Shown here piece after piece: positions 4,228-30,900 of a stretch of 34,367 nt of DNA. Made by a program: the position numbers and the translations under genes. Source of the DNA: Candidatus Moraniibacteriota bacterium (GTDB taxonomy: Bacteria > Patescibacteriota > Minisyncoccia > Moranbacterales > UBA9337). Below the pieces are notes generated by a model. The model made no database searches and was not told where the DNA came from. It was given only the letters and a program-made list of their open reading frames with translations. Numbering within the stretch: the first letter of the stretch is position 1; every line of letters begins with the position of its first letter. The stretch lies in assembly GCA_003510795.1 (NCBI GenBank), contig DOKP01000063.1, positions 1 to 34,367 of the forward strand, read 5' to 3'.

Positions 4228-4833
4228 ATGAATATAAAAGCAGTCGTGTTTGATGCGGATGGGGTGGTGATAAATTCGCCTGGATATTTTAGCGTACAAT
4301 ACCAAAAAGATTTTAATGTTTCCAATGATGTTATGCTACCTTTTTTTAAGGGAAAATTTCAAGAGTGCTTGGTGGGTGAGGCTGATTTGAAAAAAGAACT
4401 GAAACCTCTTTTAAAGGAATGGAAGTGGCAAGGCGGTGTCGAAGAGCTTTTAAAATATTGGTTTGAAGCGGAACATTATATAGATGACAGGGCGATAACT
4501 GAAATAAAAAGACTGAGAGAAAAGGGAATAAAATGTTATCTGGGCACTAAGCAAGAAAAATACAGAATGAAATATATAGAAGAAGATATGGGACTAGGTG
4601 CTTTTTTTGATGGAATTTTTTCCTCAAGCAATATCGGATACAAAAAACCAAATGAGAGATTTTATGATTCTATAGCTAGTGTGCTAGAAAAAACTGAAAA
4701 AATTAAACCAGAAAATATTCTTTTTTGGGATGACAAAAAAGAAAATGTTGATGGGGCTAATGGATGCGGTTGGAATGCTTTTCTTTTTGCAAGCTTCAAT
4801 GATTTCAAAAAAAGAATGGATGATATTTTTTAA
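4228..4833 (+). CDS. HAD-superfamily hydrolase
   Basis: Motif I is VVFDADGVV immediately after the ATG at 4228, with a later K...P and WDD (motif IV-like). The track ORF begins at 4141 on a non-ATG codon overlapping the recJ end, so the ATG at 4228 is preferred. Confidence 0.8.
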   Translation: MNIKAVVFDADGVVINSPGYFSVQYQKDFNVSNDVMLPFFKGKFQECLVGEADLKKELKPLLKEWKWQGGVEELLKYWFEAEHYIDDRAITEIKRLREKGIKCYLGTKQEKYRMKYIEEDMGLGAFFDGIFSSSNIGYKKPNERFYDSIASVLEKTEKIKPENILFWDDKKENVDGANGCGWNAFLFASFNDFKKRMDDIF

Positions 4834-5030
4834 AATTAAAATGAAAAATTTTCTCCGTAGTTTGTTTTGGTAGGCGGTTATATTATTACACAGGCGTATT
4901 TAATATGACTGTCTTAATTCTCAAGCTATTTAAAAATTATTATTACCTTATCAGCTTATTTCCAGATAGCGTATTGGAATTATTTTAAATGTTATTTCTA
5001 GAATTTCTAAATAGCAAAGATAAATAAAAT

Positions 5031-5237: not shown

Positions 5238-5855
5238 ATGAAAAACAAACACAAAAACAACAATAAAATTGATATTCAAGAAAGTATCGAAAATTTTCTT
5301 CATTCAGATAGCGCTCTGGCCATGACGACAAAATTTGTCTTGGCTTTTGTGGCAGTGGGGGCATTTGCTTTCGGGGGTGCGCTTATCCCTGGGATTTTAA
5401 AATGCATCAAAGAATTTGAGGGCAGTAGCAACTATTCAGATAAAAAAGTTAGGAATGCTGTGGAGGCTCTAAAAAGAGGAAAATTTATTAAAATAATAAA
5501 AAATAAAAATGGAAAAATAAAAATAAAACTTACTAATAAGGGAAGGAAAAGAATTATTGATATCGTTATAGATGATTTGATGATATGCGTGCCTAAGGTG
5601 TGGGATAAAAAATGGCGTATTTTAATTTTTGATATACCTAATCGGATGACTAATGAAAGAAATTCTTTTAGGCTAAAGATTAAGAAATTGGGTTTTTATC
5701 AATTTCAAAAGAGCGCCTGGTTTCATCCTTATCCTTGTGAAGATGAAATTTTGGCAGTGGCGGAATTTTATGCAGTAAGCGAATATGTGGAGATAATTAC
5801 TGCGGATAGAGTGCTTCATGAAAAAGAATTAAAAAAATATTTTAAATTAAAGTGA
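5238..5855 (+). CDS. PaaX-like / Cas2-fold putative DNA-binding protein with an N-terminal hydrophobic segment
   Basis: 205-aa ORF. A TM-like stretch (FVLAFVAVGAFAFGGALIPGIL) is followed by a basic wHTH-like segment. The C-terminal WRILIFDIPNRMTNERNSFRLKIKKLGFYQFQKSAWFHP matches the W-x-[LIV]-[LIV]-x-[FY]-D-[IL]-P...R...L...GF...Q.S.W pattern of PaaX C-terminal/Cas2-like ferredoxin folds. Confidence 0.6.
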   Translation: MKNKHKNNNKIDIQESIENFLHSDSALAMTTKFVLAFVAVGAFAFGGALIPGILKCIKEFEGSSNYSDKKVRNAVEALKRGKFIKIIKNKNGKIKIKLTNKGRKRIIDIVIDDLMICVPKVWDKKWRILIFDIPNRMTNERNSFRLKIKKLGFYQFQKSAWFHPYPCEDEILAVAEFYAVSEYVEIITADRVLHEKELKKYFKLK

Positions 5856-19500: not shown

Positions 19501-22500
19501 TCACCAATTCTCCCGCTACTTATGATTACCTTACAATTTCCGATCAAGCGATTACTCTTAATCAAATAAATTTAACTACTGATGTAACCGGAACATTGCC
19601 AGTCGGAAATGGTGGAACTGGCTTGACTTCATACGGCGCTGCTAATCAAATCATGGGAATGAATGCGGCTGGGGACGCCTTGGAATACAAAACAGTTTCT
19701 GGGACTGCCAATCAAGTTACAATTACCCCAGCCGCTAATTCTTTGACCTTATCTTTACCTCAAGATATCCACACCGCCGCCAATCCGACATTCGCTGGCC
19801 TGACTTTAAGCGGCCTCACTGCCGGTTCAATTCCATTCATCGGAACAGGCGGAATAGTTTCGGAGGATAATGACAATTTATTTTATGACGTGACAAATCA
19901 TTATCTGGGACTGGGTACAACAACTCCAACATATATGCTAGACATTGCAGGTGCTAGCGGACTTTCCAATCTATTTAGGATTTCTTCCGCCGGCTCCGAC
20001 ATCATGACCGTGACTGATACCCAAACAACTTTCAGCAATCCAGTCGCCTTCGGTTCAGTTGGAGATGTCTCAATGGCGTATGATTTGGTGATGAGTAATT
20101 CTTCATCTGCTAATATTAATTTTAATGGTTCAGGATATATTCAAACCACTAGCGCTTGGCAAAATCTAGATCTGACATTGAGCGCGGCTAATGATGGTTA
20201 TATCGTGGCGGCTGACACTCTTTTAAATGATGTCGATTTATCTGCTGTTACTGCCGGGGAGTATTATGGAACTAACATTGATGTGGATTCAACTGGAATA
20301 TTTACCACCGGCACGACTAATATTTATGGCATCAATTCTAACGCCACTGCCAGCGGAATTTCCACCGGTGGAACAGTCAATACTTACGGCGGATATTTCA
20401 GCGCCACAGGAGAAAACACCGGCGCTGCTACGACCAATGCTTATGGACTCTATGTAAACGGTGCCACCGGCGCGGATAATAATTATTCCGCCGCCTTTAT
20501 GAATGGAAATGTGGGGATTGGAACAGCCACGCCAACTTATAATTTAGAAATAGCTGATGATAGCAGTGAATTATATAGTTTTTATGCAAATAAAAGCAAT
20601 GGAAATACGGACAGTTCTGTAATTCGTGCTTCAGGAACCAGTAACACGACAGGTGTTCGTTCTTCGGCTGTTGGTGGATGGGCATTAAGAGGTGATCATG
20701 CTGGTACTGCTTCTGGAGGCGCACTGCAACTGTATAGTGGAAGCATAACTTCTTCTGTTCTTGCATATTTTACACAAGCTAGTAGTGTTTTTTCAGGCGA
20801 TGCATTAGTTATGAACATGGGAAGGGGAGGCGGATCGTTTACAGGAAACTTTATCAATCTTCAGGTTAATGATAGCTCTTTGTTTACAATCAACGCCAGC
20901 GGGCAAGTGGTAGCGGGCACCTGGATGGGCGCCACTATTGGAGTGGGTTATGGAGGAACGGGAACTTCGACTGCCTTTACAACTGGTTCAATTCCATTTG
21001 CTGGAGCGGGCGGAGTGTATACCCAGGATAATAGTAATTTCTTCTGGGATAACTCCACTAAGCGCTTAGGAATTGGTACCAATACTCCTGGATCAATGCT
21101 TGATTTATTTGGAGTAAATAATCAATTGAGATTCTCTTATGATATTAGCAATTACGCTACGCTTTCGGCTGATAATACTGGCGCTCTCGTGATGAGCGGT
21201 AGTGGCGCGAGTGGTTCAAAAATAACTATCGGTTCGGGCTTAGCCGAAGATTCTTTGGCAATTTTTGATGGCAATGCTCAGGACTTTCATTTAGGCTTGG
21301 ATGACACGGATGACATCTTTAAAATCGGTTTAGGCGGAGCTTTGGGCACGACTGATTTCTTATCCATGGATGCCAATGGAAGAATCGGCATTGGTACCGT
21401 AGCGCAAACAGCATTATTACACCTAAATGGAACTGAGGGCGTGGTGGGATTAGAAATTAATTCTAATCAAACTACCTCCACAAATAATATTATGATGCTT
21501 CGCTCAGATGTGGCGAGCGCCGATGATGCAGTTTTCCGCGTGCAAGCCAATGGAGCGGTTTATGCTGATGGAGCTTACACGGGGACAGGCGCAGACTATG
21601 CTGAGTATTTCTTTACTAAGAACAAAGATTTAGTGGCCGGAGAAACAGTTTGTATCGATGAAGAAAATAATAATGCCATAAAGAGATGTAGCCGAAGCGG
21701 AGACACTAATATCATGGGTATTGTTTCCAGCAATCCTTCGGTAATCGGTAATGGCCAAGATGACAGAGAAAATGATGAGAATTATAAAGTGATTGGAATG
21801 TTAGGCCAGATTCCAGCCAGAGTAAATGATGAAAACGGAGCTATCAAAATCGGAGATGGATTAGCTGCGGCCAATATGCCCGGATATTTAAGAAAAGCCG
21901 AAGCCGGAGAGTCAACGGTTGGTATCGCGTTGGAGAAATTAGTTAGCGGTGATAGTACAATTCAAGTGATGATTTCCAGGAGGAATAAAAGCTTGACCGT
22001 AGAAACCGTCGAGCAATCTATCCAAGACAGAATTGCCAATATGGAAATAGAAGATCAAGTTAATCAAATTATTGCCAATGGCGCAGAAATGTTGGAAGTT
22101 AGATCCAGTTTAGCGAGCTTGGAATTGGCTGTAACTGGCAATGGTCTTTTGGTTACTGATATTCAAATCCAGATGAATCAAATCAAAGAACAAATTAGAG
22201 AGATTGATTTTGTTGAGATGAATGATAAACTGGATACTCTTTTGAGCTTTTTAGATGCGTCCGATGGAAATGTAAAAATTGATGGAAAATTAGAAGTAGC
22301 CATAACGGAAACAGGCGCTTTGGTGATAAAAAATATTGACTTAGAGGCGCCAACAATTGGAACTGGAAAAATTTGCGGTTTGATTGCGGATACTAAAGAT
22401 GAGAACGGAAATTACGATAATATTGATGATTGCAGTGGAAATAAAATTCCATATGACAAAGATGGAGACCAAATGAATGATTGGACAAATAATACTGAGC

Positions 22501-22769
22501 CGATGCCCAAAGATGAAAATCATGATTGGATTGATGACGATACGCATGAGCCCATTATTAATAATGGAAAGAAAGTAATCGTTCCTACTAAAGCTGTAAG
22601 TAAAAATAGTAAGATATTTGTCACCTCTACTTCAGCCGCTATTATTCAACCATTGGCAGTAGTAGATATCAAAGAAGGTGAAAGCTTCACAATCGAAACA
22701 AATGACGGCATAGAAGTCGACAACGCTTTGGAATTCAATTGGTGGATTGTGGAAGAAGGGAAAGAATAA
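10518..22769 (+). CDS. giant (4083 aa) secreted tail-fibre-like repeat protein with a peptidase-G2/IMC-like C-terminal region, coiled coil and acidic Asp-rich tail
   Basis: Uninterrupted 12.25-kb ORF with an N-terminal signal/TM (VIFFATVGVLLAGFVFGLNLVKAQ). At least 8 modules begin with DISSETNL / DIDISDYTNL and contain LP[VI][AG]NGGTGA..LNDLITLG, a phage-tail-fibre-like GGTG motif. GADYAEYF...IMGIVSSNPSVIGN...IGDGL starting near nt 21588 resembles the peptidase G2 / intramolecular-chaperone autocleavage domain of phage appendage proteins. A heptad-like segment spans ~21990-22260, and the tail is DxD-rich. Confidence 0.85.
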   Translation: MFFGKKNKIRVIFFATVGVLLAGFVFGLNLVKAQTIKTTKGTLDISAYILNQENKEIPNGKYQVRFAIYSKDRSEKDPYPSDDDKNSRIWEEEQEVEISSGVFNTYLGLVSALPENIDLAASEYYLGIRIGEDSESIPRKKIGYVPSAINAINSVNSTFVNGATTGIAQGNILLLGKNGKIDLDRLPTGTDANSLVLGDDGRLHDQNTDTGTNSTEFNIGNGTGVNSNFNLTVSNASNKPAIRFNGLSQKWELSNDGTTFAELGGGSALQSQIDQRALIGHTHSTADIISGTLSASRGGTGLDGAFATDGQLLIGNGTGYSLGNLSSSDSSIVITNGSGAIDLVSSLGTNVDISSETNLTASGLLLNLTGDNLSINEGILTDGMLCTYSSTDGLICDTLSSSVGHAPVSIGSPANGLSVNGAQTISLALASATTNGALSSSDWNIFNNKVSSQWITTGSDIYYLAGNVGIGTSSIAERLTVAGNIQLSGSIFATNTSQDIGTATERFRYGYFENLDVNNISVGGLDISGSIANIFTINSNNATNDTEDSFLAFDRGENGGVSNLPATIQWDSANDIFVTNYPLSISGNATAAGFSVGGETITDWTGTGMIISGGALTTSLGTAIDISSETNLAVGGTLLTRADDTLSLREGFLANGRLCTYDTTSGLVCNTDSATVGHNALTINATANGLSVNASQVLSLALASTSTIGALSDTDWDTFNNKQNALTLGNITGTTNRVSVAGGTGAIIGTGVTLNLPQDIATTSTPTFGGLTVSGNQTITGSLGIRESTGATFYTYFQGGDQSGNITYTLPTGAPASDGYVLTSAANGTMSWQSVSGTGGTTGTGSANQVTYWTGTSTLAGENQLNVSRGGTGIDGSTVANGRLLIGNGTGYTLANLTSADSSIVITNGAGSINLVSSLGTAIDISSETNLTGDAEIVLTGDSLSIAASIARDSELHSAVTLSGQTYLSLVGQALTASQINLTSHVTGTLPVANGGTGATSLNDLITLGTHTAGNYISTVTGNTQIVVGGVGAENATATLSIGADSIGDTQLAFNTGQHLATTNSPTFAGLTLNGNQTLNGTLAIREGGGTPTNYTTFVGGVQSADVTYTLPTGAPSSNGYFLSAQTDGTLAWQSISGAGGMNSFSLSADTGTTQTIGDSETVNILGGTNLASTIDASNNVTLNLDSTLTGVTWNGNDIDISDYTNLSGNAEIVLTGDSLSIAASIARDSELHTIATVSGTPNYITLSGQDIVRSLINLTSHVTGTLPVANGGTGAITLNDLITLGTHTTGSYVNTITGNTQIVVGGVGAENATATLSIGADSIGDTQLEFNTGQNLTTTSSPTFAGLTLNGNQTVNGTLAIREGGGTPTNYTTFVGGVQSADVTYTLPVAGGNDGEVLKTDASGNLYWALVAGGTGGIGTVTSVSSGNGLTGGPITGSGTLSINLLSTDTDSATASSYSGMEFVGGQLSLIRGCGANEVMGWDNTNGVWKCTSVSGTGGTTGSGLAGHIPYWSSASNLTYDSNGDFFWDVANNRLGIGTTSPVTALDVNGTITTTGLTLNGNQTLNGTLAIREGGGTPTFYTTFQGADQLGNITYILPASNTNGLLRNTAGVLSWDTNSYLTANQTITLTGDVTGSGTTSIDTIVGDDSHAHTSTTLPASISYLGSQIDISSETNLSGDTEIVLTGDSLSIAASIARDSELHTIATMSGTPDYITLVGQDIVRGLIDLTSDIIGTLPIANGGTGATSLNDLITLGTHTAGNYINTITGNTQIVVGGVGAENATATLSIGADSIGDTQLEFNTGQNLTTTSSPTFAGLTVSGNQTVTGTLGIRESTGATFYTYFQGADQIGNVTYTLPSGAPVADNYVLTSAMDGTLAWQSSGAVGAVNGNGAANQVAYWTGVGTIAGENQLNVSRGGTGVNASAIADGQLLIGNDTANNYTLATLTPGDGINITNGAGSITVASTLGTSIDISSETNLAGDSEIVLDSDSLYIAASIARDSELHDSMTLSGESYLSRVGQALTANQINLASHVTGTLPIANGGTGAVTLDNLITLGTHTTGSYVNTITGNTQIVVGGVGAENATATLAIGADSIGDTQLEFNTGQNLTTTSSPTFVGLTLNGNQAITGTLGIRESDGATFYTYFQGADQIGNVTYTLPSGAPVADNYVLTSATDGTMSWSLVSGVGGMSSFSLAADTGTTQTIGNTETVSILGGTNIASTIDASNNVTLNLDSTLTGVTWNGTDIDISDYTNLAGDTEIVLTGDSLSIAASIARDSELHSEVTLGGESYLSRVGQALTANQINLASHVTGTLPIANGGTGATTLNDLITLGTHTAGNYVQSITNGDGILGGNGGSEGSALTLSIDALTTGTTLTTFSNSGLETTADGVRLIGGCNDGQILTWDADDVRWECTTNTAGSSDWTDDGTATYLTDVTNDFIIGGTSLASSMFGVDESAGAFYFGSDASANPSFNFTATDSDTGTFGFNDNDAFYFSGANVGIGIAAPTEALHISGGNILLDNTYSLKWSAGPQITGGPSMTIDGGTNVLNFRGNSTNHTFISVGGNWGLGDATPESRMEISANGGATDLFMLSSNDDLNGDLFVVKNSGYVGIGDTTPASLFTVGDGDLFQINSSGQVVAGTWNGTDIDISDYTNLAVDGSGEIVLTGDTLSIAASIARDAELHDAMTLSGESYLSRVGQALTAAQINLASHVTGTLPVGNGGTGLSAYGTSNQIMGMNAAGNALEYKTVSGTANQITVTNAVNSLTLSLPQDIATTSSPTFAGVTLSGLTPGSIPFIGTGGIVSQDNLNLSWNDASNYLYLGSAFSFGIDATDSNKFKIYSGNGIAGTSEFSIDENGVTSIANLELGELAFNDDSGAISWIDMGVTSGAVDNTIESYTAQLDGNPMLTIYGLSDGLGGVDNLGVGIGTVTPTAKLHIAAGMATAGGAPLKLTSGTNLTTPEAGAFEYDGTNLYFTPNTTREEVAFMSDITASAVTLTNSPATYDYLTISDQAITLNQINLTTDVTGTLPVGNGGTGLTSYGAANQIMGMNAAGDALEYKTVSGTANQVTITPAANSLTLSLPQDIHTAANPTFAGLTLSGLTAGSIPFIGTGGIVSEDNDNLFYDVTNHYLGLGTTTPTYMLDIAGASGLSNLFRISSAGSDIMTVTDTQTTFSNPVAFGSVGDVSMAYDLVMSNSSSANINFNGSGYIQTTSAWQNLDLTLSAANDGYIVAADTLLNDVDLSAVTAGEYYGTNIDVDSTGIFTTGTTNIYGINSNATASGISTGGTVNTYGGYFSATGENTGAATTNAYGLYVNGATGADNNYSAAFMNGNVGIGTATPTYNLEIADDSSELYSFYANKSNGNTDSSVIRASGTSNTTGVRSSAVGGWALRGDHAGTASGGALQLYSGSITSSVLAYFTQASSVFSGDALVMNMGRGGGSFTGNFINLQVNDSSLFTINASGQVVAGTWMGATIGVGYGGTGTSTAFTTGSIPFAGAGGVYTQDNSNFFWDNSTKRLGIGTNTPGSMLDLFGVNNQLRFSYDISNYATLSADNTGALVMSGSGASGSKITIGSGLAEDSLAIFDGNAQDFHLGLDDTDDIFKIGLGGALGTTDFLSMDANGRIGIGTVAQTALLHLNGTEGVVGLEINSNQTTSTNNIMMLRSDVASADDAVFRVQANGAVYADGAYTGTGADYAEYFFTKNKDLVAGETVCIDEENNNAIKRCSRSGDTNIMGIVSSNPSVIGNGQDDRENDENYKVIGMLGQIPARVNDENGAIKIGDGLAAANMPGYLRKAEAGESTVGIALEKLVSGDSTIQVMISRRNKSLTVETVEQSIQDRIANMEIEDQVNQIIANGAEMLEVRSSLASLELAVTGNGLLVTDIQIQMNQIKEQIREIDFVEMNDKLDTLLSFLDASDGNVKIDGKLEVAITETGALVIKNIDLEAPTIGTGKICGLIADTKDENGNYDNIDDCSGNKIPYDKDGDQMNDWTNNTEPMPKDENHDWIDDDTHEPIINNGKKVIVPTKAVSKNSKIFVTSTSAAIIQPLAVVDIKEGESFTIETNDGIEVDNALEFNWWIVEEGKE
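13287..18560 (+). repeat. array of ~0.83-1.4 kb intragenic repeat modules with long near-identical DNA stretches
   Basis: Module starts lie near 13287, 14109, 15525, 16431, 17250 and 18450, with degenerate copies near 11571 and 12390. For example, the 56-nt gctgaaatagttcttaccggagattctctaagcatcgctgccagtattgccagaga is identical at 13319 and 14148. A ~60-nt stretch (...catgtgacaggaacactccccgtagctaacggcggaaccggagc) is identical near 13450 and 14290. Confidence 0.85.
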
Positions 22770-22770
22770 T

Positions 22771-22809
22771 TCTTTGGATTTTTCGATGGGCGGGACGAGT
22801 TGGTGTGAG
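22771..22809 (+). pseudogene. 13-codon relic of the dockerin-like C-terminal module (SLDFSMGGTSWCE)
   Basis: atgggcgggacgagttggtgtga at 22786-22808 is an exact 23-nt match to 34340-34362, the 3' end of the gene at 32513-34366. The relic translates as SLDFSMGGTSWCE versus SLGLSMGGTSWCE. It begins 2 nt after the giant gene's stop and has no upstream ORF of its own. Confidence 0.7.
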
Positions 22810-22853
22810 TGGATCATTTTGCAATTAAAGTAATAATTTTTCTAAGTATTCTA

Positions 22854-24590
22854 ATGATGAAAGAAATAAAATTGATAATTATTTTAGTTTCTTTGATATT
22901 TTATCTGGGAGTGTCCGCTAAAAATGTTTTTGCCGCGGACTTCTATATCTCACCGACCGGGAATGATTCTAATAACGGGCAGACTTCCAGCACTCCTGTG
23001 GCGACATTCGCGCATGCTGAAACACTTCTCAATGCTGGCGATACACTCATTCTGATGGACGGGATATATAATCAGCAACTCCACCCGAGAAAATCAGGCA
23101 CTGAAGGGAACCCTATTACGTATATGGCGCAAAATCGGGGACAGGCGATAATCCAGATGACAACGCCTGGAGAAGCCATTCTTCTAGCCAGTAATTCAAG
23201 CGGTTATCCGGGGGGAGCGTTTTACTGTCACGACATTACCATCGATGGCCTGATTGCGAGGAGTAATGGAGAATATAATACAATTGTGATTAATAGCTGG
23301 GATTCTGCAACTGAAGCAGAAATGGTAAAACGCATTATAATCAGGAACATAGGAGCGTTCGGGTCGGCTCTTGACGCCAACGCCGCTGCCGTAGCAATAG
23401 GAAATAACGCTACTTATATTACCATTGAGGACAGCTTTGCCTACGGCATAGGTCGGGCAGCAATGATTGCTTTTGGTTCGAGTCATATAACCGTCAGGCG
23501 AGTCGTTTTGAGGTATGATTACTGGCGGGGAACAGGGAAAATAAACGATCCAAGGAGAGCATTTTCAGGATATAACACCCAAGACTCAGTTTTTGAAAAT
23601 ATTATAGTTCTCGATGGGGCGCCGATGCCCCCAGAAGTGAGCTGCGATATGGCGGGAATGGTTGCCAGTGGGAATTTGACTCCGGCGTACGTAACACATA
23701 GTGCCAGAAACAAATATTTAGGATCGATTGTTCTCAATACTGTTGGTAATGGTTTGTTAACAAATGGTGGTGGGTCGCCTAATGAAGATCAGCAATTTAA
23801 AGATTTGATATTTCATAAAGTTACCGGCTATGGTGCTGTTGTTGAACAGCTAGAGACAAGGGGAATATATGAATATATTACAATCAAAAACTCTGGGGCA
23901 CTTGGATTTAAAACAGGGACTAATGGTGTGTCAGACGAAACCATTAAAAACTTTTTTATTGACACTACAGGTGGGGTTGGATTTTATTTAGAAAATCCTT
24001 CTGCTGTAACCACGTTTGTAGATAATACAGCTATCAATCTTGTATCTGGTAGTCCAATCGAGGCATCATATGCTCCAACATTAGATTATCTCACTAGGCC
24101 CACAATGGTAACTGGACATGAGCGCGGTGGAACTATGGTAAACCGTTACGTCGATGGCAACTTGACATCAATCCCTTTGTGGCCATGGCCCAATGAGGAT
24201 TTAATCAGGGAAAATATGTGTGATCCTGATGATTTAATTACTGCCCATCGAACATCAGCCAATGGCGCAGGATGGGAACCTGAGTGGTGCGCTTCCAACA
24301 AAACATTAACAGAACATATTTGGGAATACTTGGGCAATGAATGTCCTGAAGAAATATGCGGAGCAATATCTATCCGCTCGGACGTCGACAATTCTTCCGC
24401 CACCAACACCACTGACGCACTTCTGACTCTCCGCAATTCCCTCGGCCTTTCCATGGACGGTACGGCGTGGCAAGTGGGAGCGACAACTGGCGACGTGGAT
24501 TGTAGTGGTGCTTCCAATTCGACTGATGCACTTTTAATTCTTCGATATTCTTTGGGACTCTCGATGGATGGGACGAGTTGGTGCGAATAA
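22854..24590 (+). CDS. secreted right-handed parallel beta-helix (pectin-lyase-fold) protein with a C-terminal double dockerin-like module
   Basis: Signal peptide MMKEIKLIIILVSLIFYLGVSAKNVFAA from the ATG at 22854 (the track start at 22809 is GTG). DFYISPTGNDSNNG...AGDTLILMDGIY is the typical beta-helix N-cap. The C-terminus has two EF-hand-like segments, DVDNSSATNTTDALLTLRNSLGL and GDVDCSGASNSTDALLILRYSLGL. Confidence 0.8.
   Translation: MMKEIKLIIILVSLIFYLGVSAKNVFAADFYISPTGNDSNNGQTSSTPVATFAHAETLLNAGDTLILMDGIYNQQLHPRKSGTEGNPITYMAQNRGQAIIQMTTPGEAILLASNSSGYPGGAFYCHDITIDGLIARSNGEYNTIVINSWDSATEAEMVKRIIIRNIGAFGSALDANAAAVAIGNNATYITIEDSFAYGIGRAAMIAFGSSHITVRRVVLRYDYWRGTGKINDPRRAFSGYNTQDSVFENIIVLDGAPMPPEVSCDMAGMVASGNLTPAYVTHSARNKYLGSIVLNTVGNGLLTNGGGSPNEDQQFKDLIFHKVTGYGAVVEQLETRGIYEYITIKNSGALGFKTGTNGVSDETIKNFFIDTTGGVGFYLENPSAVTTFVDNTAINLVSGSPIEASYAPTLDYLTRPTMVTGHERGGTMVNRYVDGNLTSIPLWPWPNEDLIRENMCDPDDLITAHRTSANGAGWEPEWCASNKTLTEHIWEYLGNECPEEICGAISIRSDVDNSSATNTTDALLTLRNSLGLSMDGTAWQVGATTGDVDCSGASNSTDALLILRYSLGLSMDGTSWCE
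24372..24590 (+). repeat. conserved 3' dockerin-like module, copy 1
   Basis: About 215 nt, roughly 85% identical by eye to 34146-34366, while the upstream parts of the two genes are unrelated in sequence. Confidence 0.8.
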
Positions 24591-24658
24591 ATTGAAAAAC
24601 TCCCCCTTTTATGCGATAATTGAAATATAAAATAACTAGCTAAATATCAAAAAAATAA

Positions 24659-25315
24659 ATGAAAAAAATAAAAGCCTATTGGCAAAAAAATCCCAAGAAA
24701 AGAAAATTGATGATGTTTGGGGTAGTAGTTGTAGGTATGGCTTTATCTTTCGGATTGTATGCCTTGGCGCAGTCGTTTATCGACAGTTTTCTGGACACAA
24801 CCAGAATTGCCAATACTTGGAATGTAAATGTGGACACTGGGGCGGGAGAAATCAAACTGGCTGATAAAACTTGCGATGACGGCGTGTGGTTTTGCTCTCT
24901 ATCGACCACTTGTACCAACAGTCTGGGAGATGGCACCAATATTATCGTCAAAAGAGTTAATGAAACCGGTAGCAAACAATGGAAACCGGCCAACACGGCT
25001 TGCGACAAACCAAATTGCGCGACTGACGGCGGGCAAGACGGAGATAATCTGGTGGCGGATAACACGGTCAACTTCTCTGGTTATCCCGCGCAGGATGCTT
25101 GCAAGATGGCAGGTGGTAGGTTGCCCACTATCAGCGAATTGCAATGCATCTATGCTAACCGTACGATTTTTGGAAATAATTTTGGCACGAGCTATTACTG
25201 GAGTGCGACAGAGGGCTCTACGACGTACGCCCGCCTCGTGAATTTCAATGACGGCAATTCGAACTACAACCTTAAGACGAATAGCTACTCAGTCCGCTGT
25301 GTGCGAGGTTGGTAA
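24659..25315 (+). CDS. DGR target protein: membrane-anchored, Cys-rich, C-terminal DUF1566 / C-type-lectin-like domain carrying the variable region
   Basis: N-terminal TM (LMMFGVVVVGMALSFGLYALA). GGRLPTISELQCIY...YYWSATE...VNFNDGN...YSVRCVRGW matches the DUF1566 (Lcl C-terminal-like) pattern. The last 44 codons are the VR. The gene is noticeably more GC-rich than its neighbours, which produces several spurious overlapping ORFs. Confidence 0.9.
   Translation: MKKIKAYWQKNPKKRKLMMFGVVVVGMALSFGLYALAQSFIDSFLDTTRIANTWNVNVDTGAGEIKLADKTCDDGVWFCSLSTTCTNSLGDGTNIIVKRVNETGSKQWKPANTACDKPNCATDGGQDGDNLVADNTVNFSGYPAQDACKMAGGRLPTISELQCIYANRTIFGNNFGTSYYWSATEGSTTYARLVNFNDGNSNYNLKTNSYSVRCVRGW
25181..25313 (+). 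other. DGR variable region (VR) with putative IMH at its 3' end
   Basis: Aligns without gaps to 25536-25668 (offset 355). There are 11 mismatches in 25181-25308, at 25193, 25214, 25215, 25226, 25235, 25236, 25265, 25271, 25272, 25286 (10 positions) plus none elsewhere; counting both bases of each doublet gives 11, and every one corresponds to an A in the TR. Confidence 0.95.
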
Positions 25316-25535
25316 TTTGGAAAATTTGGAATTTGGAAAATAAAAATAAAATGGGTCAGATTTTTTTGGATATTTGTATTTTTTCTCGGTATTGAATATA
25401 AATAATCAAAAAAGAGATGAAAAAACATTTACCACGATCTTAATCCAAACAAAAAGTTTGATAAAATGTCAGGTAATAATTTTTAATATTTTTTTAAATC
25501 TTATTGCCGCAGGATGGTACTGTGTTAAGATTTTA

Positions 25536-25668
25536 TTTGGCACGAGCAATTACTGGAGTGCGACAGAGAACTCTACGACGAACGCCCGCAACGTGAATTT
25601 CAATGACGGCAATTCGAACAACAACAATAAGACGAATAGCAACTCAGTCCGCTGTGTGCGAGGGTAGT
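25536..25668 (+). ncRNA. DGR template region (TR)
   Basis: A non-mutated, A-rich copy of the VR. Seven AAY codons (AAT/AAC) in the TR correspond to TAT, GGC, TAC, CTC, TAC, CTT and TAC in the VR. It lies in the 422-nt gap between the target gene and avd. Confidence 0.9.
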
Positions 25669-25737
25669 CATTATTTTTTCTGTTTTGAATAAGAATCAAA
25701 ACACCCATTTTATTTAAATTAATTAAATATATTTTCT

Positions 25738-26145
25738 ATGCCAAAAACCGACCAGCTCCCAATATATTTAAAGTTGTGGTTGCTTTTGAAATATTCTTAT
25801 AAAATGACGGGCAATTTCCCAAGAAATCATAAACATACTATCGGTCAAGACCTCTTGAATTTAGGTTGGCAATGTATTGATTTAATTTTTATCATAAATT
25901 CCGCTGATAATGAAAAAAAGAATGGTTCAATCAAACAACTTAGTCTAAAATTTGATCAATTAAAAATGCGATTCAGAATGGTTGCTGAAACGGAAATTAT
26001 ATCCCCAAAACAATTAGCCCATATCTATGAAAATTATCTTTATCCAATCGGCGACCAAATCGGCGGTTGGCAAAAATGGGCGATTGAGGAAGAGGCTAAA
26101 AGTATAAATAATAAAACTATCAATAATGATGCAGACAATATTTAA
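25738..26145 (+). CDS. avd: DGR accessory variability determinant (Avd), four-helix-bundle protein
   Basis: 135 aa and basic. LPIYLKLWLLLKYSYKMTGNFPRNHKHTIGQDL...QLKMRFRMVAE...ISPKQLAHI...IGDQIGGWQKW matches the Avd / 23S-IVS four-helix-bundle pattern (fPK..k..lg, GGW.K). It overlaps the RT start by 20 nt. Confidence 0.8.
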   Translation: MPKTDQLPIYLKLWLLLKYSYKMTGNFPRNHKHTIGQDLLNLGWQCIDLIFIINSADNEKKNGSIKQLSLKFDQLKMRFRMVAETEIISPKQLAHIYENYLYPIGDQIGGWQKWAIEEEAKSINNKTINNDADNI

Positions 26146-27211
26146 CACTGAAAAAATATTTAAGGCATATTTTGATTGTCGAAAAAATAAGCGAAAAACC
26201 CGTAATGCTTTAAAATTTGAGTGGAACTTTGAGGATAATTTGCAGATATTATTGAATGAATTATCGAATCGAACTTACGTGCCAGGAGAATCGATTTGCT
26301 TTGTCGTTTTGGAGCCGAGTGTAAGAGAAATATTCGCTGCTGATTTTCGCGATCGAGTGGTTCATCATCTTTTAATTAACGAGATAATCGAATCGGCAGA
26401 GAAACATTTTGTTTATGATAGTTTTGCCTGCCGAGTTAATAAAGGAACTCATCGCGCCATGTTGCGCCTTAAGGATTTTATCCGTAAAGTAACAAAAAAT
26501 AGTACAAAAGAAGGGTATTATCTTCATTTGGACATAAAAAGTTTTTTTATGTCTATCGATAAGGGAATTTTGTTTGATATTTATCAGCAATTTATAGAAA
26601 AGGAAAATATGCCCCAAAAATGGAAAGAAGAAATGTTTTGGCTGGGTAAAATTATTATTTTTCATAATCCGACGTTTAATTGCTGGCGTAAAAAAAGTTT
26701 AGTCAATAAATGCAAAGTTGACTTGAGTGGTTCGGTTCCGTTTGGAAAAAGTCTATTTGATGTTCCATCAACAAAGGGTTTGCCAATTGGAAATTATTCA
26801 TCGCAATTTTTTGCTAATCTTTATATGAATAAACTTGATCAGTATATTAAACGGGAGCTGAAGTGTATTTTTTATATTCGCTATGTAGATGATTTGATTT
26901 TATTAGATGCTGACGCAAAAGTTCTTACTGCTTGGCAAAAACAAATTGTAGATTGTTTGAAATATTCGTTAAATTTGGAAATAAATTCAAAAAAGACAAA
27001 AATAGAAAAAATAATAAAAGGAATTGATTTTTTGGGATATTATTTAAAACCAACGCATATTTTGGTCCGCAGAAAAGTAGTAGAAAGGTTTAAGAATAAA
27101 ATTTTTGAGTTAAATAAAGATGATGGAAATTTAAAAAAAATAATGGCTGTGCGAGCGTCTTTTTTTGGCCACGTCAAATGGGCTAATGCAAGAGCGCTTG
27201 ATACTGCATAA
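26126..27211 (+). CDS. DGR-type reverse transcriptase
   Basis: 361 aa. It carries REIFAADFRDRVVHHLL, SFACRVNKGTHRA, GLPIGNYSSQFFANLYMNKLDQ (the [IL]GxxxSQ motif 4 signature of DGR RTs) and the catalytic RYVDDLILL (YxDD). It has no maturase/X or endonuclease domain. Confidence 0.9.
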   Translation: MMQTIFNTEKIFKAYFDCRKNKRKTRNALKFEWNFEDNLQILLNELSNRTYVPGESICFVVLEPSVREIFAADFRDRVVHHLLINEIIESAEKHFVYDSFACRVNKGTHRAMLRLKDFIRKVTKNSTKEGYYLHLDIKSFFMSIDKGILFDIYQQFIEKENMPQKWKEEMFWLGKIIIFHNPTFNCWRKKSLVNKCKVDLSGSVPFGKSLFDVPSTKGLPIGNYSSQFFANLYMNKLDQYIKRELKCIFYIRYVDDLILLDADAKVLTAWQKQIVDCLKYSLNLEINSKKTKIEKIIKGIDFLGYYLKPTHILVRRKVVERFKNKIFELNKDDGNLKKIMAVRASFFGHVKWANARALDTA

Positions 27212-27235
27212 ATTCCATTTTTGTGAGTGCTCTTG

Positions 27236-27244
27236 TGGTATAAT
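27236..27244 (+). promoter_or_regulatory. extended -10 promoter element (TGGTATAAT)
   Basis: tggtataat lies 52 nt upstream of the ATG at 27296. No well-spaced -35 was seen. Confidence 0.4.
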
Positions 27245-27295
27245 AAAGTAGCGAAAATTTAAGTCGTTTAAAAAACTTAGAAAAATAAAAAAATT

Positions 27296-27859
27296 ATGCA
27301 ACCTTATAAAAAACTTTATACTTATTGGTTCTCAGTTATTATTTATGATTTGGAAGTTGAGTTTACTAATAAATGGATTAAAAGCTGGAAGCTAAAAGAG
27401 CAGATGGACGGCGCAGCCAGGAGTGGAAAGCAAAACATCGCAGAAGGCTCGGATGATATGTCCGTTTCCTTAAAAGTGGCTATTAACCTCACTGGAATTG
27501 CCAAGGGCTCATTAGAGGAATTGACTGGTGATTTGGAGGATTTTTTACGTCAAAGAAAATTATCCAAGTGGGATAAAAATGATCCGCGCGTGCTCGCAAT
27601 GCGCGCGCGAAGCGCACAATGGGTAAGAACCTTAAGTGACTTAAGCTGCTTAGACAAGGAGAAGGAAATCGAGGAACTCCTCAAGACAATCGAGCTACCC
27701 GAACAGGACGAGGAAGCAGCAAATTTCTTGTTGACACTTTGCCACCAAGCGACATTACTCCTTCATCGTCAAGTCGAAGCATTAAAATTAAAACATCAAA
27801 AGGAGGGCGGACTCTCGGAGGAGTTGTATCGGAAAAGGAAAGAATATAGGGGCTTTTAA
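27296..27859 (+). CDS. second four-helix-bundle (Avd / 23S rRNA-IVS family) protein with a C-terminal extension
   Basis: KKLYTYWFSVIIYDLEVEFT...QMDGAARSGKQNIAEGS...GIAKGSLEELTGDLEDFLRQRKL fits the four-helix-bundle (TIGR02436-like) pattern. An extra ~90-aa helical, charged tail follows. Confidence 0.7.
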   Translation: MQPYKKLYTYWFSVIIYDLEVEFTNKWIKSWKLKEQMDGAARSGKQNIAEGSDDMSVSLKVAINLTGIAKGSLEELTGDLEDFLRQRKLSKWDKNDPRVLAMRARSAQWVRTLSDLSCLDKEKEIEELLKTIELPEQDEEAANFLLTLCHQATLLLHRQVEALKLKHQKEGGLSEELYRKRKEYRGF

Positions 27860-27865
27860 GAAGCT

Positions 27866-27931
27866 TAGTAAGAATCTTAAGTAACTTAAGAATCTTAAAA
27901 TAAGAGTCTTAAGTTATCTAAGAAACTTAAA
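27866..27931. repeat. cluster of CTTAAG/CTTAAA palindromic half-repeats in the 72-nt spacer before the beta-helix/LamG gene
   Basis: CTTAAG at 27876, 27885 and 27908. CTTAAA at 27894 and 27926. CTTAG/CTAAG at 27863 and 27918. The first ~37 nt repeat a segment of the upstream CDS (27623-27658). Confidence 0.7.
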
Positions 27932-30900
27932 ATGAAAACAAAATTTACAATTTTTCTCTTATTCTGTCTAACCCTTTTCTCTTGGGCAACTTTTGCTTCG
28001 GCGGATTATTCCGCGCAAGGAATTGTAGAGTCCAAAAATATGCTTTCGGGCGCGACCGTGACGGCCATCAATGGTTTCCAAGTTACCGCCACTGTTCCAG
28101 CCAACACTACAGTGAGCGTTAAATTTTCCCAAGACAAAGTAAATTATTACAATTCAGCCGGAGTGAAAGAAGGTTGGGATACTTGCGCCAATGGAGTAAC
28201 TAATGTCAATTTGACAGGCTTGGCTTGGACGGGCGGAATTTTGTTTTATAAAATTCAATTGACTTCGACTGATGTGGCAGTAACGCCGACTATTAGTGAC
28301 GCGCAAGTGGATTATGACGGCACGGTTGTGCCGGCGCTCAGCGGAAATTCTTATCCTACTCAAGGAGCGGTGGTTTCTACCAATCTTCTGACTGGTGGCA
28401 CGATGGCTTTTGACAACACTGTGCGCTTTGCTTATAACGTCAGTTCTTTGCCATCGGGTACTAGCGCGAGTGTACAATTTTCCCAAGACGGCACTAATTG
28501 GTATTCATCTGGCGGTACGCTGTGGGGCGAGGATGTTTTGTCTTCTGGGGCGCATTTGGATATTACCAACTCACTGGATTTGTCGGCTTTGAATTGGAGT
28601 GGGGTGACCAGTTTTTATTACAAATTAAATCTCTATAGTCCTTTGGATGATAATCTCACTCCTGCGGTCAGTGATGCGGGATTGATTAATCCTGATCAAG
28701 TCTACTATAGTGTCGGGCAATCCGTCGCAAACCTGATGTCTGGAGCACCGACTGTAACCATTACTGGAGGTGCGGGGGTCTTCTCTGTGGCACAAACTGG
28801 CAACATCGGTGTAGGAGACCGGGTTACATATAACACTAGCGCAGTGGCATATATTAGCGCCAAGACCAACGCTGACGGCATGCACTGGAGCCTTGTAACG
28901 GCGACAGGGGGCTTACCAGGGGACATTTCCAATTCAGCGGTGGTTTCAATCACTCGGGAATTTACTTCCCTTAACTCGGCGGAAGCGGCGGCTAGCAATA
29001 TTTTTCATATCAATAGTTCCGACCTTGTCTCGGCTAATGTAGTTCTCAATCTGCCTTGCTATTATGACACCGGAGCGGACACTACCGAAGTCACAGTTGA
29101 TAGTTATACTACTAGTGCAAATAATTATATCAAGATTTATACGCCCAATAATACTTCCACAGAAGTGAACAATTCACAAAGGCATCAGGGGAAATGGGAT
29201 GATGGGAAATATAGATTAAATGTTACAGGAATAGGGATTTTAAATTCAGCTCACTATACGATAATTGATGGATTGCAGATATCAATATCGCCTAATGATA
29301 CGTATAGATACGGTATCCGCGGTAACAATAATATTGGAGGGATGAAAATATCAAATAATATAATTAAGCAACTTAATGCCCAGGATAATTCTGGTGGAAT
29401 ATATATTGCTACGATGCCATCTGGATATAAATCCTTTGCTTATAATAATATTATTTATGATATTGTAGGATCTGCTTATTTTTTCTCTAGCGTGGATATA
29501 GAATCTTTTTATATTTTTAATAATACTGCTCATGGCAATACGGTCGGATTTAGAGATTCGGGTCAAGATATTATTGTCAAAAATAATCTTGCATATGATA
29601 ATGGTACTGATTATGTTGGAACATTTAGTTCTTCTTCGACCAATAATATTTCCAAAGATGCTACCTCTCCAAATTCTGGCTCAACTGATTGTGGTGGACA
29701 TAGTTGTCGCAGTCAAACAATTTCTTTCGTCGATGCCATCAACAAAGATTTTCATCTTTCTCCTTCTGACACAGCCGCGAAAAATGCAGGCGCGGATTTA
29801 AGTGCGGATGCTAATTTCCCATTTAATACTGATATTGATGGTAGCTTCCGCCTCCACCAAGGTTTCGGCGCGACACAGTGGGACATCGGCGCTGATGAAA
29901 CCGCCACGCAAATATTCAGAAGTGTCGGACCATCTGCTACCGCAGTTCTTGAAAGCGATACCGCTCATGCTCGCAATGTGACGCTGACTTCTGGGGTGGC
30001 GACTTTTAGCAATGCTCTCGCCGATAACATCGGAGTGGGGGATGCGATTCTTATTGACACTGGAGGAACTGCTGATGCAATTGATACTTCTGATACTTTA
30101 TTATTTGTCCACGGAAGAACTGATAGTACTCATTACACTTTGCGCACTCATACTGGTGCAATACCAACTGACATTACAGTGAACAACACTTATCAAATCT
30201 TCCGCGCTTATACATCGTTATCTAACGCTGAAGCCGGCACGAAAAATACTTCCATCCCCATAACTTTCAACGGAGGTAATCGTGATTTGGTAGTAAATAA
30301 TGAACAATGGAACATCGCCTGCTACGGTGACGCGGTGGATACGACTTCTGTAACGATTGATGGCTGGAATACAGGGGAAAATAATTTTATTAAAGTATAT
30401 ACTCCGGTATATACCGAGGAAGTAGGGGTTTCTCAAAGACACAAGGGGAATTGGGATGATGGGAAATATCAATTATCGAAGGAAAATGTTAATGGTTATA
30501 CGATATATATACTTGATGAATATATCGAAATTGATGGATTGCAATTCGATGTTTCTGGTACCGGAACACATCCAAATGCAGTTAAAATTGGAGCTAATAA
30601 TATTATTTTAAGCAATTCCATGATTAAAGATTCATCTTTAAACAGCGAGTATATAATTAATATTGAAGGAACATTTGGGGATGTGAAAGTTATAAATAAC
30701 ATTGTTTATAGAACAGATGATCTTAAAGTAGGTATAGGCATAAGAAGTTATTCATCAACAAATTTATCAATGGGATATTTTTATAATAATACTGTGAACG
30801 GGTTTAATGTTGGAATCGAATCTCGAAACAATAGTGTGTTAGCAAAAAATAATATAGCCCAAAATTGTACAAATGGTTATAATAGTGGATTTGACGCTTC

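What the first reader, a model, noticed from the sequence alone, without database searches (positions are those of the whole stretch)
24659..27211. Complete diversity-generating retroelement: VR/TR pair with 11 of 11 mismatches at template adenines, plus Avd and a DGR-type RT
Seen directly: 25181-25308 (3' end of the DUF1566-like gene) and 25536-25663 align without gaps over 128 nt and differ at 11 positions. In every case the downstream copy has A and the genic copy has T, G or C: A>T at 25193, AA>GG at 25214-15, A>T at 25226, AA>CT at 25235-36, A>T at 25265, AA>CT at 25271-72, A>T at 25286. I counted 42 A in the 128-nt template (33%), so all 11 random mismatches falling on A has a probability of order 0.33^11, about 1e-5 to 1e-6. 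All substitutions hit codon positions 1-2 of AAY (Asn) codons, giving Tyr, Gly, Tyr, Leu, Tyr, Leu, Tyr. This is the classic DGR design, because AAY mutagenesis cannot create stop codons. An Avd-like four-helix-bundle gene and an RT with [IL]GxxxSQ and YVDD follow immediately, overlapping by 20 nt. Established knowledge: adenine-specific mutagenic retrohoming from TR to VR defines DGRs, and C-type-lectin-fold/DUF1566 ends are common targets. Here the target is a small (218 aa) membrane-anchored, Cys-rich protein embedded in an adhesin island.
Basis: partly seen in the sequence, partly recalled or inferred. Interest (0 to 1): 0.9.

Follow-up and report, generated by a model that had tools for sequence, protein, structure and literature searches.

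The report
Intact DGR in a Moranbacteria genome
This is a genuine, apparently working diversity-generating retroelement that rewrites the tip of a small surface lectin-like protein in a groundwater Candidatus Moranbacteria genome. Such elements are already known to be abundant in this group of bacteria, so it is a good example rather than a discovery.

Summary
All 10 are adenines in the TR (P about 6e-6) and fall in 7 in-frame AAY codons.

All parts of a DGR are present on one strand:
- a 218-aa target with a Lcl_C/DUF1566 C-type-lectin fold
- the TR
- Avd (Pfam bAvd above its cut-off)
- an RT carrying IGNYSSQ and YVDD, whose best solved relative by far is Bordetella phage bRT (E 3e-37; next RT 4e-10)

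The window is an NCBI Candidatus Moranbacteria MAG contig. A sister strain from groundwater metagenomes (six assemblies, L004-L009) has an identical TR. Across about 5.4 kb (25079 to about 30500) it shows only 2 other differences. Its VR differs at 15 positions, and every one is a TR adenine. That is natural evidence of mutagenic retrohoming.

Of 80 genome loci with a related RT, 58 carry an A-biased TR/VR pair. The closest of them share the order VR-TR-avd-RT.

Verdict: a new member of a known kind, the Patescibacteria (CPR) DGRs. Interest is low.

The parts
24659..25315 (+). Target gene (218 aa). It has an N-terminal basic stretch and a hydrophobic helix (about residues 18-36), 8 Cys, and a C-terminal Lcl_C/DUF1566 C-type-lectin-fold domain. 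NCBI HBR79588.1, annotated 'hypothetical protein'.
   Evidence: ORF. Pfam Lcl_C 43.5 bits against a cut-off of 34.9. AF2 model with pLDDT 83.8. Best Foldseek match is the Legionella Lcl C-terminal domain 8q4e (E 2e-5), followed by many C-type lectins. Cys positions and hydropathy. Identity of the record.
25181..25308 (+). Variable repeat (VR), the last 128 nt of the target's coding sequence apart from the final 'W' codon and the stop.
   Evidence: 10 of 10 mismatches to the TR at TR adenines. 15 differences from the sister-strain VR, all at TR adenines.
25288..25308 (+). Candidate IMH-like 3' end of the VR (CTCAGTCCGCTGTGTGCGAGG). It is identical to the TR end and never varies. VR and TR diverge immediately after it (TTGGTAATTTGG against GTAGTCATTATT).
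   Evidence: Sequence. The function is inferred by analogy with BPP-1 and was not tested.
25316..25535 (+). 220-nt AT-rich VR-TR spacer. No significant hairpin follows the VR.
   Evidence: DNA fold z-score 0.12. One T-run indel relative to the sister strain at 25488.
25536..25663 (+). Template repeat (TR). It has 42 A and 13 in-frame AAY codons, and it is 100% identical in the sister strain.
25664..25737 (+). TR-avd spacer, containing the hairpin GTTTTGA/TCAAAAC (25682-25702) flanked by GGGT (25662-25665) and ACCC (25703-25706). It is a possible counterpart of the BPP-1 'Sp' region.
   Evidence: The hairpin is conserved in L002 and L003 only, and there is no consensus structure across more distant loci. 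This role is an inference.
25738..26145 (+). avd accessory gene (135 aa, pI 8.6).
   Evidence: Pfam bAvd 48.4 bits against 40. NCBIfam DivGenRetAVD is the only hit, at 57.8 bits, below its cut-off of 80. pI.
26126..27211 (+). DGR reverse transcriptase (361 aa). It overlaps avd by 20 nt and has IGNYSSQ at 26786-26806, YVDD at 26882-26893, and R67 aligned to bRT R74.
   Evidence: More than 7300 homologues, mostly from Patescibacteria. 58 of 80 related genome loci carry an A-biased TR/VR pair.

Best explanation
This is a chromosomal diversity-generating retroelement of the Patescibacteria (CPR) type, with the order target(VR)-TR-avd-RT on one strand.

Inferred mechanism, by analogy with Bordetella phage BPP-1:
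1. An RNA containing the TR and its flanks is transcribed in the same direction as avd and the RT.
2. The RT-Avd complex copies the TR into cDNA, inserting random nucleotides opposite template adenines.
3. The cDNA replaces the VR at the 3' end of the target gene. Direction is set by the GC-rich, invariant 3' end shared by VR and TR.

Because the variable adenines sit in 13 AAY codons, up to about 10^23 protein variants are reachable. Only one codon, AAG at Lys206, can produce a stop. The diversified residues lie in the C-terminal beta-strands of a disulfide-rich C-type-lectin-fold domain. An N-terminal helix exports or anchors that domain, so the element most likely retunes a ligand-binding surface on the cell exterior.

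Shown here: the anatomy, the family assignments, and the A-only differences both within the element and between two natural alleles. Inferred: priming, the role of an IMH, export of the protein, and the ligand.
For: A-only mismatches:
- VR against TR: 10 of 10 at TR adenines, P 6.5e-6.
- The sister-strain loci L004-L009 have an identical TR. Their VR differs from the TR at 15 of 15 adenines (P 7e-9) and from this window's VR at 15 positions, all TR adenines.
- The surrounding tract from 25079 to about 30500 has only 2 other differences: 25488 (an indel) and 26065. Against the overall background rate of 2.3%, P is 3e-7.
- All 18 positions seen to vary lie in AAY codons.

RT:
- PDB 8ub7 (bRT) matches at E 3e-37 over two segments that cover most of the protein. 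Retron, group II, DRT and other RTs score 4e-10 or worse and match only the palm region.
- It has the IGNYSSQ signature. R67 aligns with bRT R74 and I221 with bRT I181, the two residues shown to promote adenine mutagenesis (PMC7826257).

Other parts:
- Avd: Pfam bAvd above its gathering score.
- Target: Lcl_C above its gathering score, and an AF2 model whose best matches are the Lcl C-terminal domain and C-type lectins.

Family context:
- 58 of 80 genome loci with a related RT have an A-biased TR/VR pair. The loci with the most similar RTs (about 50% identity or more) that also have a detected TR/VR pair mostly share the VR-TR-avd-RT order.
- In 15 natural variants of a homologous target (cluster of P0157), variation is almost entirely confined to the C-terminal VR.

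Genomic context is chromosomal: RecJ, NDK, UppS and an acyl-CoA synthetase lie upstream.
Against: - No direct evidence of current activity. Only consensus assemblies were available and reads could not be mapped. The same sister allele was recovered in six shown assemblies (19 contigs on record), so turnover is not fast enough to differ in every sample.
- No hairpin or cruciform follows the VR.
- No conserved RNA structure could be shown around the TR.
- The NCBIfam Avd model scores below its curated cut-off, and Avd has no sequence match to solved bAvd.
- No Rfam family matches.
Confidence: 0.95

Rival explanations
1. It is a DGR by descent but now inactive, a fossil cassette. The VR differences would be relics of past retrohoming, and the two alleles would have diverged long ago.
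For: The same VR allele was recovered unchanged in six independent assemblies. No hairpin follows the VR. Only two alleles were seen.
Against: - The avd and RT ORFs are intact, with the catalytic YVDD and the signature motif.
- The TR is 100% identical between the strains.
- The two strains are identical apart from 2 differences over about 5.4 kb around the VR, yet differ at 15 VR positions. The VR change is therefore younger than almost any other mutation in that tract.
Confidence: 0.1
2. The two repeats are an ordinary partial gene duplication or gene-conversion tract. The downstream copy would be a decaying or coding paralogue, and the A bias would be chance or compositional.
For: An ORF (25374-25667, TTG start) is open across the TR. 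The flanks are AT-rich.
Against: - 10 of 10 and 15 of 15 mismatches fall on one base of one copy (P 6e-6 and 7e-9).
- The union of 18 variable sites is all TR adenines (P 9e-11).
- Similarity begins and ends abruptly at the repeat.
- The downstream copy is the invariant one between strains.
- An Avd gene and a DGR-type RT follow directly.
Confidence: 0.01
3. The RT belongs to a different system, such as a retron, a group II intron or a DRT/UG defence RT, and merely lies next to a repeat.
For: NCBIfam has no DGR RT model, and its best hits are group II, Drt3a and retron models. PADLOC lists many DRT models.
Against: - All those hits are far below their curated cut-offs (for example 91.6 against 300) and cover only the palm region.
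- Full-length similarity is to bRT, at E 3e-37.
- The motif is IGxxxSQ, not QGxxxSP (PMC7826257).
- There is no intron RNA, retron msr/msd or other Rfam match.
- Most related RT loci carry A-biased TR/VR pairs.
Confidence: 0.01

Closest known systems
Patescibacteria/CPR cellular DGRs ('DGR clade 2' of Roux et al. 2021, PMC8144416; 'CPR set' of Wu et al. 2018, PMC5758913; Paul et al. 2017 Nat Microbiol, cited from memory and from PMC5758913, text not held)
   Same: The host group is the same: a Candidatus Moranbacteria MAG, with sister-strain loci in a groundwater metagenome. The element is chromosomal, with a DGR RT plus Avd and A-specific TR/VR mismatches. RT homologues number in the thousands and are mostly labelled Patescibacteria.
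   Different: Roux et al. report that CPR clade-2 targets typically show no recognisable transmembrane or conserved domain. This target has both an N-terminal hydrophobic helix and a recognisable Lcl_C/DUF1566 domain. I could not check whether this exact element, or its sister in the GW2011 Moranbacteria genomes, is already listed in those catalogues, because their supplements are not held.
Bordetella phage BPP-1 DGR (mtd-avd-TR-brt)
   Same: An RT-Avd pair, with the RT closest to bRT among solved structures. It shares the [I/V/L]GxxxSQ motif, the residues aligned with R74 and I181, AAY-rich TR design, a VR at the 3' end of a C-type-lectin-fold protein, and a GC-rich invariant 3' repeat end.
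   Different: - Gene order is target-TR-avd-RT, so the sequence 3' of the TR is a 74-nt spacer and then avd, not a spacer leading into the RT.
- There is no hairpin after the VR.
- It is cellular, not phage-borne.
- The target fold is the Lcl_C/DUF1566 subtype rather than Mtd.
Legionella pneumophila DGR (LdtA target; 'category d / CLec2' of Wu et al. 2018)
   Same: The VR lies in a DUF1566 / Fib_succ_major-type C-type-lectin domain of a small exported, Cys-containing surface protein (PMC5758913 section 14).
   Different: LdtA is a lipoprotein of a Gram-negative outer membrane, carried on an integrative conjugative element that also has an MSL accessory gene. Here there is no lipobox Cys near the N-terminus (the first Cys is C72), no MSL gene, and a chromosomal CPR context.

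Membership tests
Diversity-generating retroelement (DGR) | A TR/VR repeat pair whose differences fall (almost) only at adenines of the TR | tested here: met
   10 of 10 in this window and 15 of 15 in the sister allele. The union of 18 sites is all TR adenines.
Diversity-generating retroelement (DGR) | A reverse transcriptase of the DGR clade with the signature motif [I/V/L]GxxxSQ and catalytic YxDD | tested here: met
   IGNYSSQ and YVDD are present. The best PDB relative is bRT 8ub7 at E 3e-37, against 4e-10 or worse for other RT classes. 58 of 80 related loci carry A-biased repeats. No formal phylogeny with reference sets was built.
Diversity-generating retroelement (DGR) | The VR lies at the 3' end of a protein-coding target, usually in a C-type-lectin fold | tested here: met
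   The VR covers residues 175-217 of 218. Pfam Lcl_C is above its cut-off. The AF2 model matches the Lcl C-terminal domain and C-type lectins.
Diversity-generating retroelement (DGR) | An accessory protein Avd (present in about 74% of DGRs, not universal) | tested here: met
   Pfam bAvd 48.4 bits against a gathering score of 40. NCBIfam DivGenRetAVD is the only hit but scores below its cut-off, 57.8 against 80.
Diversity-generating retroelement (DGR) | An IMH / IMH* pair at the 3' ends of VR and TR that sets directionality | tested here: inconclusive
   A 21-nt GC-rich end is shared and invariant, followed by divergent sequence. Function cannot be read from sequence.
Diversity-generating retroelement (DGR) | A hairpin or cruciform just downstream of the VR (a BPP-1 feature, not universal) | tested here: not met
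   A DNA fold of 25290-25440 is no better than shuffles, z 0.12. This is not a defining feature of the family as a whole.
Diversity-generating retroelement (DGR) | Actual mutagenic retrohoming (VR changes while the TR stays constant) | tested here: met
   Indirect but strong. The two natural strains have an identical TR and 15 VR differences at TR adenines, inside a tract of about 5.4 kb with 2 other differences. Biochemical activity cannot be tested with these tools.
Retron / group II intron / DRT defence RTs (considered and rejected) | RT scoring above the family's curated cut-off, together with the cognate RNA (msr/msd or intron domains) | tested here: not met
   All NCBIfam RT family hits are far below their cut-offs. 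There is no Rfam match in the window.

The most novel reading that the evidence does not exclude
The subclade with the order TR-avd-RT, to which this element belongs, may organise its template RNA differently from BPP-1. The priming ('Sp'-like) element would lie in the short TR-avd spacer, around the hairpin at 25682-25702 with its flanking GGGT/ACCC pairing, or inside the avd coding sequence. That would be a distinct RNP architecture for DGR cDNA priming. A weaker version of the idea is that the adjacent, highly conserved four-helix-bundle-suffix protein (27296-27859), a distant relative of Avd, takes part.
Probability: 0.1. Interest if true: 0.45.

Novelty: new member of a known kind. Interest (0 to 1): 0.25.

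Why it matters
It adds one cleanly documented, apparently functional DGR to a group (CPR/Patescibacteria) already known to be rich in them. The record itself calls the target only 'hypothetical protein'.

Its practical value is as a compact example. The cassette is 2.6 kb and has a small, confidently modelled lectin-fold target. It also has a natural pair of alleles that isolates the DGR's footprint from background mutation. The variable sites are restricted to AAY codons, which shows selection acting on top of the mutagenesis.

It does not change how DGRs are understood.

Tried and rejected
1. A pattern made from the TR with N at every A found nothing in genome contigs or metagenome contigs. 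The sister alleles were reached through the protein cluster instead.

2. I looked for a conserved RNA structure in the TR-avd spacer across 12 loci with the same gene order.
- RNAalifold gave no pairs.
- The single-sequence fold is not better than shuffles, z -0.55.

3. I looked for a hairpin or cruciform after the VR and found none.

4. I tested whether the four-helix-bundle-suffix gene after the RT (27296-27859) is a second DGR accessory, and rejected it.
- It has more than 5000 homologues.
- The four contexts examined lack any DGR. One is a 90%-identical copy lying between a large protein and a LamG protein, as here but without the cassette.
- Among RT-related loci it is clearly present only in the window's own lineage and in L002. 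One further jackhmmer hit, to an 884-aa ORF in L027, was not examined.

5. Neither Avd alone nor an Avd profile matched solved bAvd. The only weak hit is to the four-helix-bundle protein 2gsc, E 0.04.

6. My first offset-based comparison suggested that the upstream gene's C-terminus differs between the strains. That was an artefact of a 108-nt intergenic indel, and blastn shows 96% identity there.

7. I could not find whether this element is already catalogued. Paul et al. 2017 is not held, the Wu et al. supplements are not held, and no paper in the library pairs 'Moranbacteria' with 'retroelement'.

8. The promoter and terminator scan was uninformative in this AT-rich sequence.
Full report
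**Observation**

- They differ at 10 positions: 25193, 25214-15, 25226, 25235-36, 25265, 25271-72 and 25286.
- At all 10 the downstream copy has A. That copy has 42 A in 128 nt, so the chance that 10 random mismatches all fall on A is 6.5e-6.
- In the frame of the 218-aa ORF 24659-25315, the 10 changes occupy positions 1-2 of seven AAY codons and give Y, G, Y, L, Y, L, Y.
- Past 25308 the copies diverge. If the alignment is forced on to 137 nt it gains three more mismatches, only one of them at a TR adenine.
- A pattern built from the downstream copy with N at every A matches only these two sites in the window. A low-stringency blastn finds no further copy.

**The parts**

All parts lie on the + strand.
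- **Target.** It scores above Pfam's cut-off for Lcl_C, formerly DUF1566 (43.5 against 34.9 bits). An AlphaFold2 model built on 55 homologues has mean pLDDT 83.8, and above 88 from residue 70 onward. Its best PDB matches are the Legionella Lcl C-terminal domain (8q4e, E 2e-5), a Bdellovibrio C-terminal domain, and a long series of C-type lectin domains.
- **Target N-terminus and cysteines.** The N-terminus is a basic stretch followed by a hydrophobic helix (maximum Kyte-Doolittle window at residues 18-36), ending ...ALA-QS. The protein is therefore exported, but a signal anchor and a cleaved signal peptide cannot be told apart here. It has 8 Cys, all at least 90% conserved among homologues.
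- **Avd.** ORF 25738-26145 scores above Pfam's cut-off for bAvd (48.4 against 40). NCBIfam's DGR Avd model is its only hit there, but below that model's cut-off (57.8 against 80).
- **RT.** ORF 26126-27211 overlaps avd by 20 nt. It has IGNYSSQ and YVDD.
- **RT relatives.** Among solved structures its best relative is the Bordetella phage bRT (8ub7), at E 3e-37, aligned in two segments that cover most of the protein. The next RT scores 4e-10, and group II, retron, DRT and other RTs match only the palm region.
- **RT residues.** In that alignment R67 and I221 correspond to bRT R74 and I181. Those two residues were shown experimentally to promote adenine mutagenesis, and [I/V/L]GxxxSQ is the DGR signature that replaces QGxxxSP (PMC7826257).

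**Origin**

The target protein is identical to NCBI HBR79588.1, a 'hypothetical protein' of a Candidatus Moranbacteria MAG, on a contig of exactly 34367 nt. The upstream genes are housekeeping genes (an acyl-CoA synthetase, RecJ, NDK, UppS). The element is therefore chromosomal and not in a phage.

**A second natural allele**

The 90%-identity cluster of the target holds a second protein, P0238 (KKP67654.1, from GW2011 Moranbacteria genomes). It is found on 19 contigs, and six loci were fetched (L004-L009).
- At the DNA level the TR of these loci is 100% identical to the window's.
- Their VR differs from the TR at 15 positions, all TR adenines (P 7e-9).
- Their VR differs from the window's VR at 15 positions, again all TR adenines.
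- The union of sites that vary in either allele is 18, all TR adenines (P 9e-11).
- The two strains are mosaics, 96-98.5% identical overall. From 25079 to about 30500 the only differences outside the VR are a 1-nt T-run indel at 25488 and one substitution at 26065.
- Fifteen changes in 128 nt, inside a 5.4-kb tract with two other changes, is the footprint expected of mutagenic retrohoming. It shows that the VR was rewritten after the two lineages last shared this tract.
- All 18 variable sites lie in the 13 AAY codons and none in the 16 other TR adenines (P 4e-6). What survives has therefore been filtered by selection on scaffold positions.
- The same sister allele was recovered in all six assemblies. 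Diversification is thus not so fast that every sample differs, or else the assemblies report only the dominant allele.

**The family around it**

- The RT has more than 7300 homologues at E 1e-20 or better. Most named ones come from Patescibacteria.
- A genome-collection scan with an RT alignment returned 80 loci. A self-comparison script found a repeat pair with at least 80% of mismatches on one base (A or its complement) in 58 of those 80.
- Among the loci with the most similar RTs (about 50% identity or more), those with a detected TR/VR pair mostly have the same order, VR-TR-avd-RT. More distant loci mostly have the BPP-1-like avd-TR-RT order, or have avd, TR and target on the opposite strand.
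- A homologous target cluster (P0157, 15 members aligned) is invariant over its first 111 residues. It varies almost only in the C-terminal 40 residues.
- This agrees with the literature. Roux et al. 2021 define a DGR clade restricted to Patescibacteria, cellular and mostly aquatic, and find DGRs enriched in CPR and groundwater (PMC8144416). Wu et al. 2018 set apart 126 'CPR' DGRs, mostly from groundwater, and describe DUF1566/Fib_succ_major targets as 14% of DGRs, exemplified by Legionella LdtA (PMC5758913).
- One mild difference: Roux et al. say CPR clade-2 targets usually lack a recognisable transmembrane or conserved domain, and this one has both.

**How it most likely works**

These steps are inferred from BPP-1 (PMC6182149; PMC5758913).
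1. An RNA spanning the TR and its flanks is bound by the RT-Avd complex.
2. cDNA synthesis is primed from within the RNA and starts at the 3' end of the TR.
3. Adenines are copied unfaithfully.
4. The cDNA replaces the VR.

Supporting details:
- The mutable base is A on the + strand. The TR is therefore read in the same direction as avd and the RT, consistent with a TR-avd-RT transcript.
- The repeat ends in a 21-nt GC-rich stretch (25288-25308 and 25643-25663). It never varies, and VR and TR diverge after it. This is the expected place for an IMH-like element.
- With 13 AAY codons and 12 other codons containing an A at a non-synonymous position, about 10^23 protein variants are reachable. Only the AAG codon (Lys206) can give a stop.

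**What could not be shown**

- No hairpin follows the VR (z 0.12).
- The 74-nt TR-avd spacer has a 7-bp hairpin (25682-25702) flanked by a GGGT/ACCC pairing. This is conserved in the two closest foreign loci, L002 and L003. The fold is not better than shuffles, and loci of the same architecture share no consensus structure.
- No Rfam family matches anywhere in the window.

**Rivals**

- *An ordinary duplication or a coding paralogue.* Excluded by the one-base, one-copy mismatch pattern, the abrupt ends of the similarity, and the invariance of the downstream copy between strains.
- *A retron, group II or defence RT.* Excluded by the full-length match to bRT, the signature motif, sub-threshold scores to every other RT family, and the absence of a cognate RNA.
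- *A fossil DGR.* Cannot be fully excluded without reads or biochemistry. It is unlikely given intact genes, an identical TR, and a VR that changed more recently than almost anything else nearby.

**The neighbouring four-helix-bundle gene**

ORF 27296-27859 is a TIGR02436 domain plus a TIGR04258 suffix domain. Its family is distantly related to Avd and it sits directly after the RT, so I tested it as a possible second accessory.
- It has more than 5000 well-conserved homologues.
- The four contexts examined contain no DGR. One is a 90%-identical copy lying between a large protein and a LamG protein, as here but without the cassette.
- Among RT relatives it is clearly present only in the window's own lineage and in L002. 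One further hit, to a long ORF in L027, was not examined.

It belongs to the flank, not to the element.

**Verdict**

It is a new, unannotated member of a well-known kind. Its sister copy lies in genomes that earlier CPR DGR surveys drew on, though I could not check their tables. Interest for a specialist is low.

Noticed in passing
window 27296-27859 (+); also L091-L097: A four-helix-bundle protein (TIGR02436) with the TIGR04258 'suffix' domain sits 85 nt after the RT. The family is very large (more than 5000 hits) and unusually well conserved (60-90% identity) across Patescibacteria. It turns up in unrelated housekeeping contexts, for example after rpoC and next to a tRNA synthetase gene. 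Its function is unknown.
   Followed up: yes
window 24362-24590 and 34138-34366; 40-nt copies at 22769-22808, 24547-24586, 34212-34251, 34323-34362: A dockerin-like C-terminal module (...LRYSLGLSMDGTSWCE) is shared by at least two of the large surface-protein genes, with weak Pfam Dockerin_1 hits. A 40-nt remnant of it lies just after the stop of the 4083-aa ORF, out of any called gene. This suggests recombination among these genes.
   Followed up: partly
window 10518-22769 (+): A 4083-aa ORF with long internal repeats has no Pfam match at E 1e-3 or better. Together with the 593-aa beta-helix-like protein, the 1523-aa LamG protein and the 617-aa TIG/dockerin-like protein, it forms the 'surface protein island' around the DGR.
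   Followed up: partly
window 19905-31314 against L004: Divergence between the window and the sister strain is strongly patchy. There are 85 differences in 20000-20499 and 15 in 24838-25078, just upstream of the VR. There are none in 26500-30499, and only one (26065) between 25500 and 30499. A 108-nt intergenic indel lies before the target gene. The pattern looks like mosaic recombination tracts.
   Followed up: partly
L020, L021, L022 (Moranbacteria MAGs), ORFs 1248-1778 and 4445-5011: In these related DGRs the TR lies inside an ORF that continues in frame into avd. The same ORF hits both the target profile and the Avd profile.
   Followed up: no
L011 (1238-1739 and 4299-4893); L017 (35-921 and 2783-3263): Each of these two related loci carries two separate A-biased TR/VR pairs within 8-10 kb, with two avd genes. 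They may be tandem or duplicated DGR cassettes.
   Followed up: no
L091/L092 against window 22809-27932: A related groundwater strain has the four-helix-bundle gene and a LamG gene side by side with no DGR cassette upstream. This suggests that the presence of the target-TR-avd-RT block varies between strains.
   Followed up: partly
L013, L025, L038, L042, L080 and others: Several loci whose RTs are 45-53% identical to this one are labelled Gammaproteobacteria, Pseudomonadales or Saccharibacteria in 'binchicken' co-assembly MAGs. Given the short contigs, these labels may reflect mis-binning rather than the true host range.
   Followed up: no
window 5238-5855 (+): A 205-aa protein has a PaaX central 'Cas2-like' domain (Pfam PF20803, E 2e-21) and lies among housekeeping genes. 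It is unrelated to the DGR.
   Followed up: no
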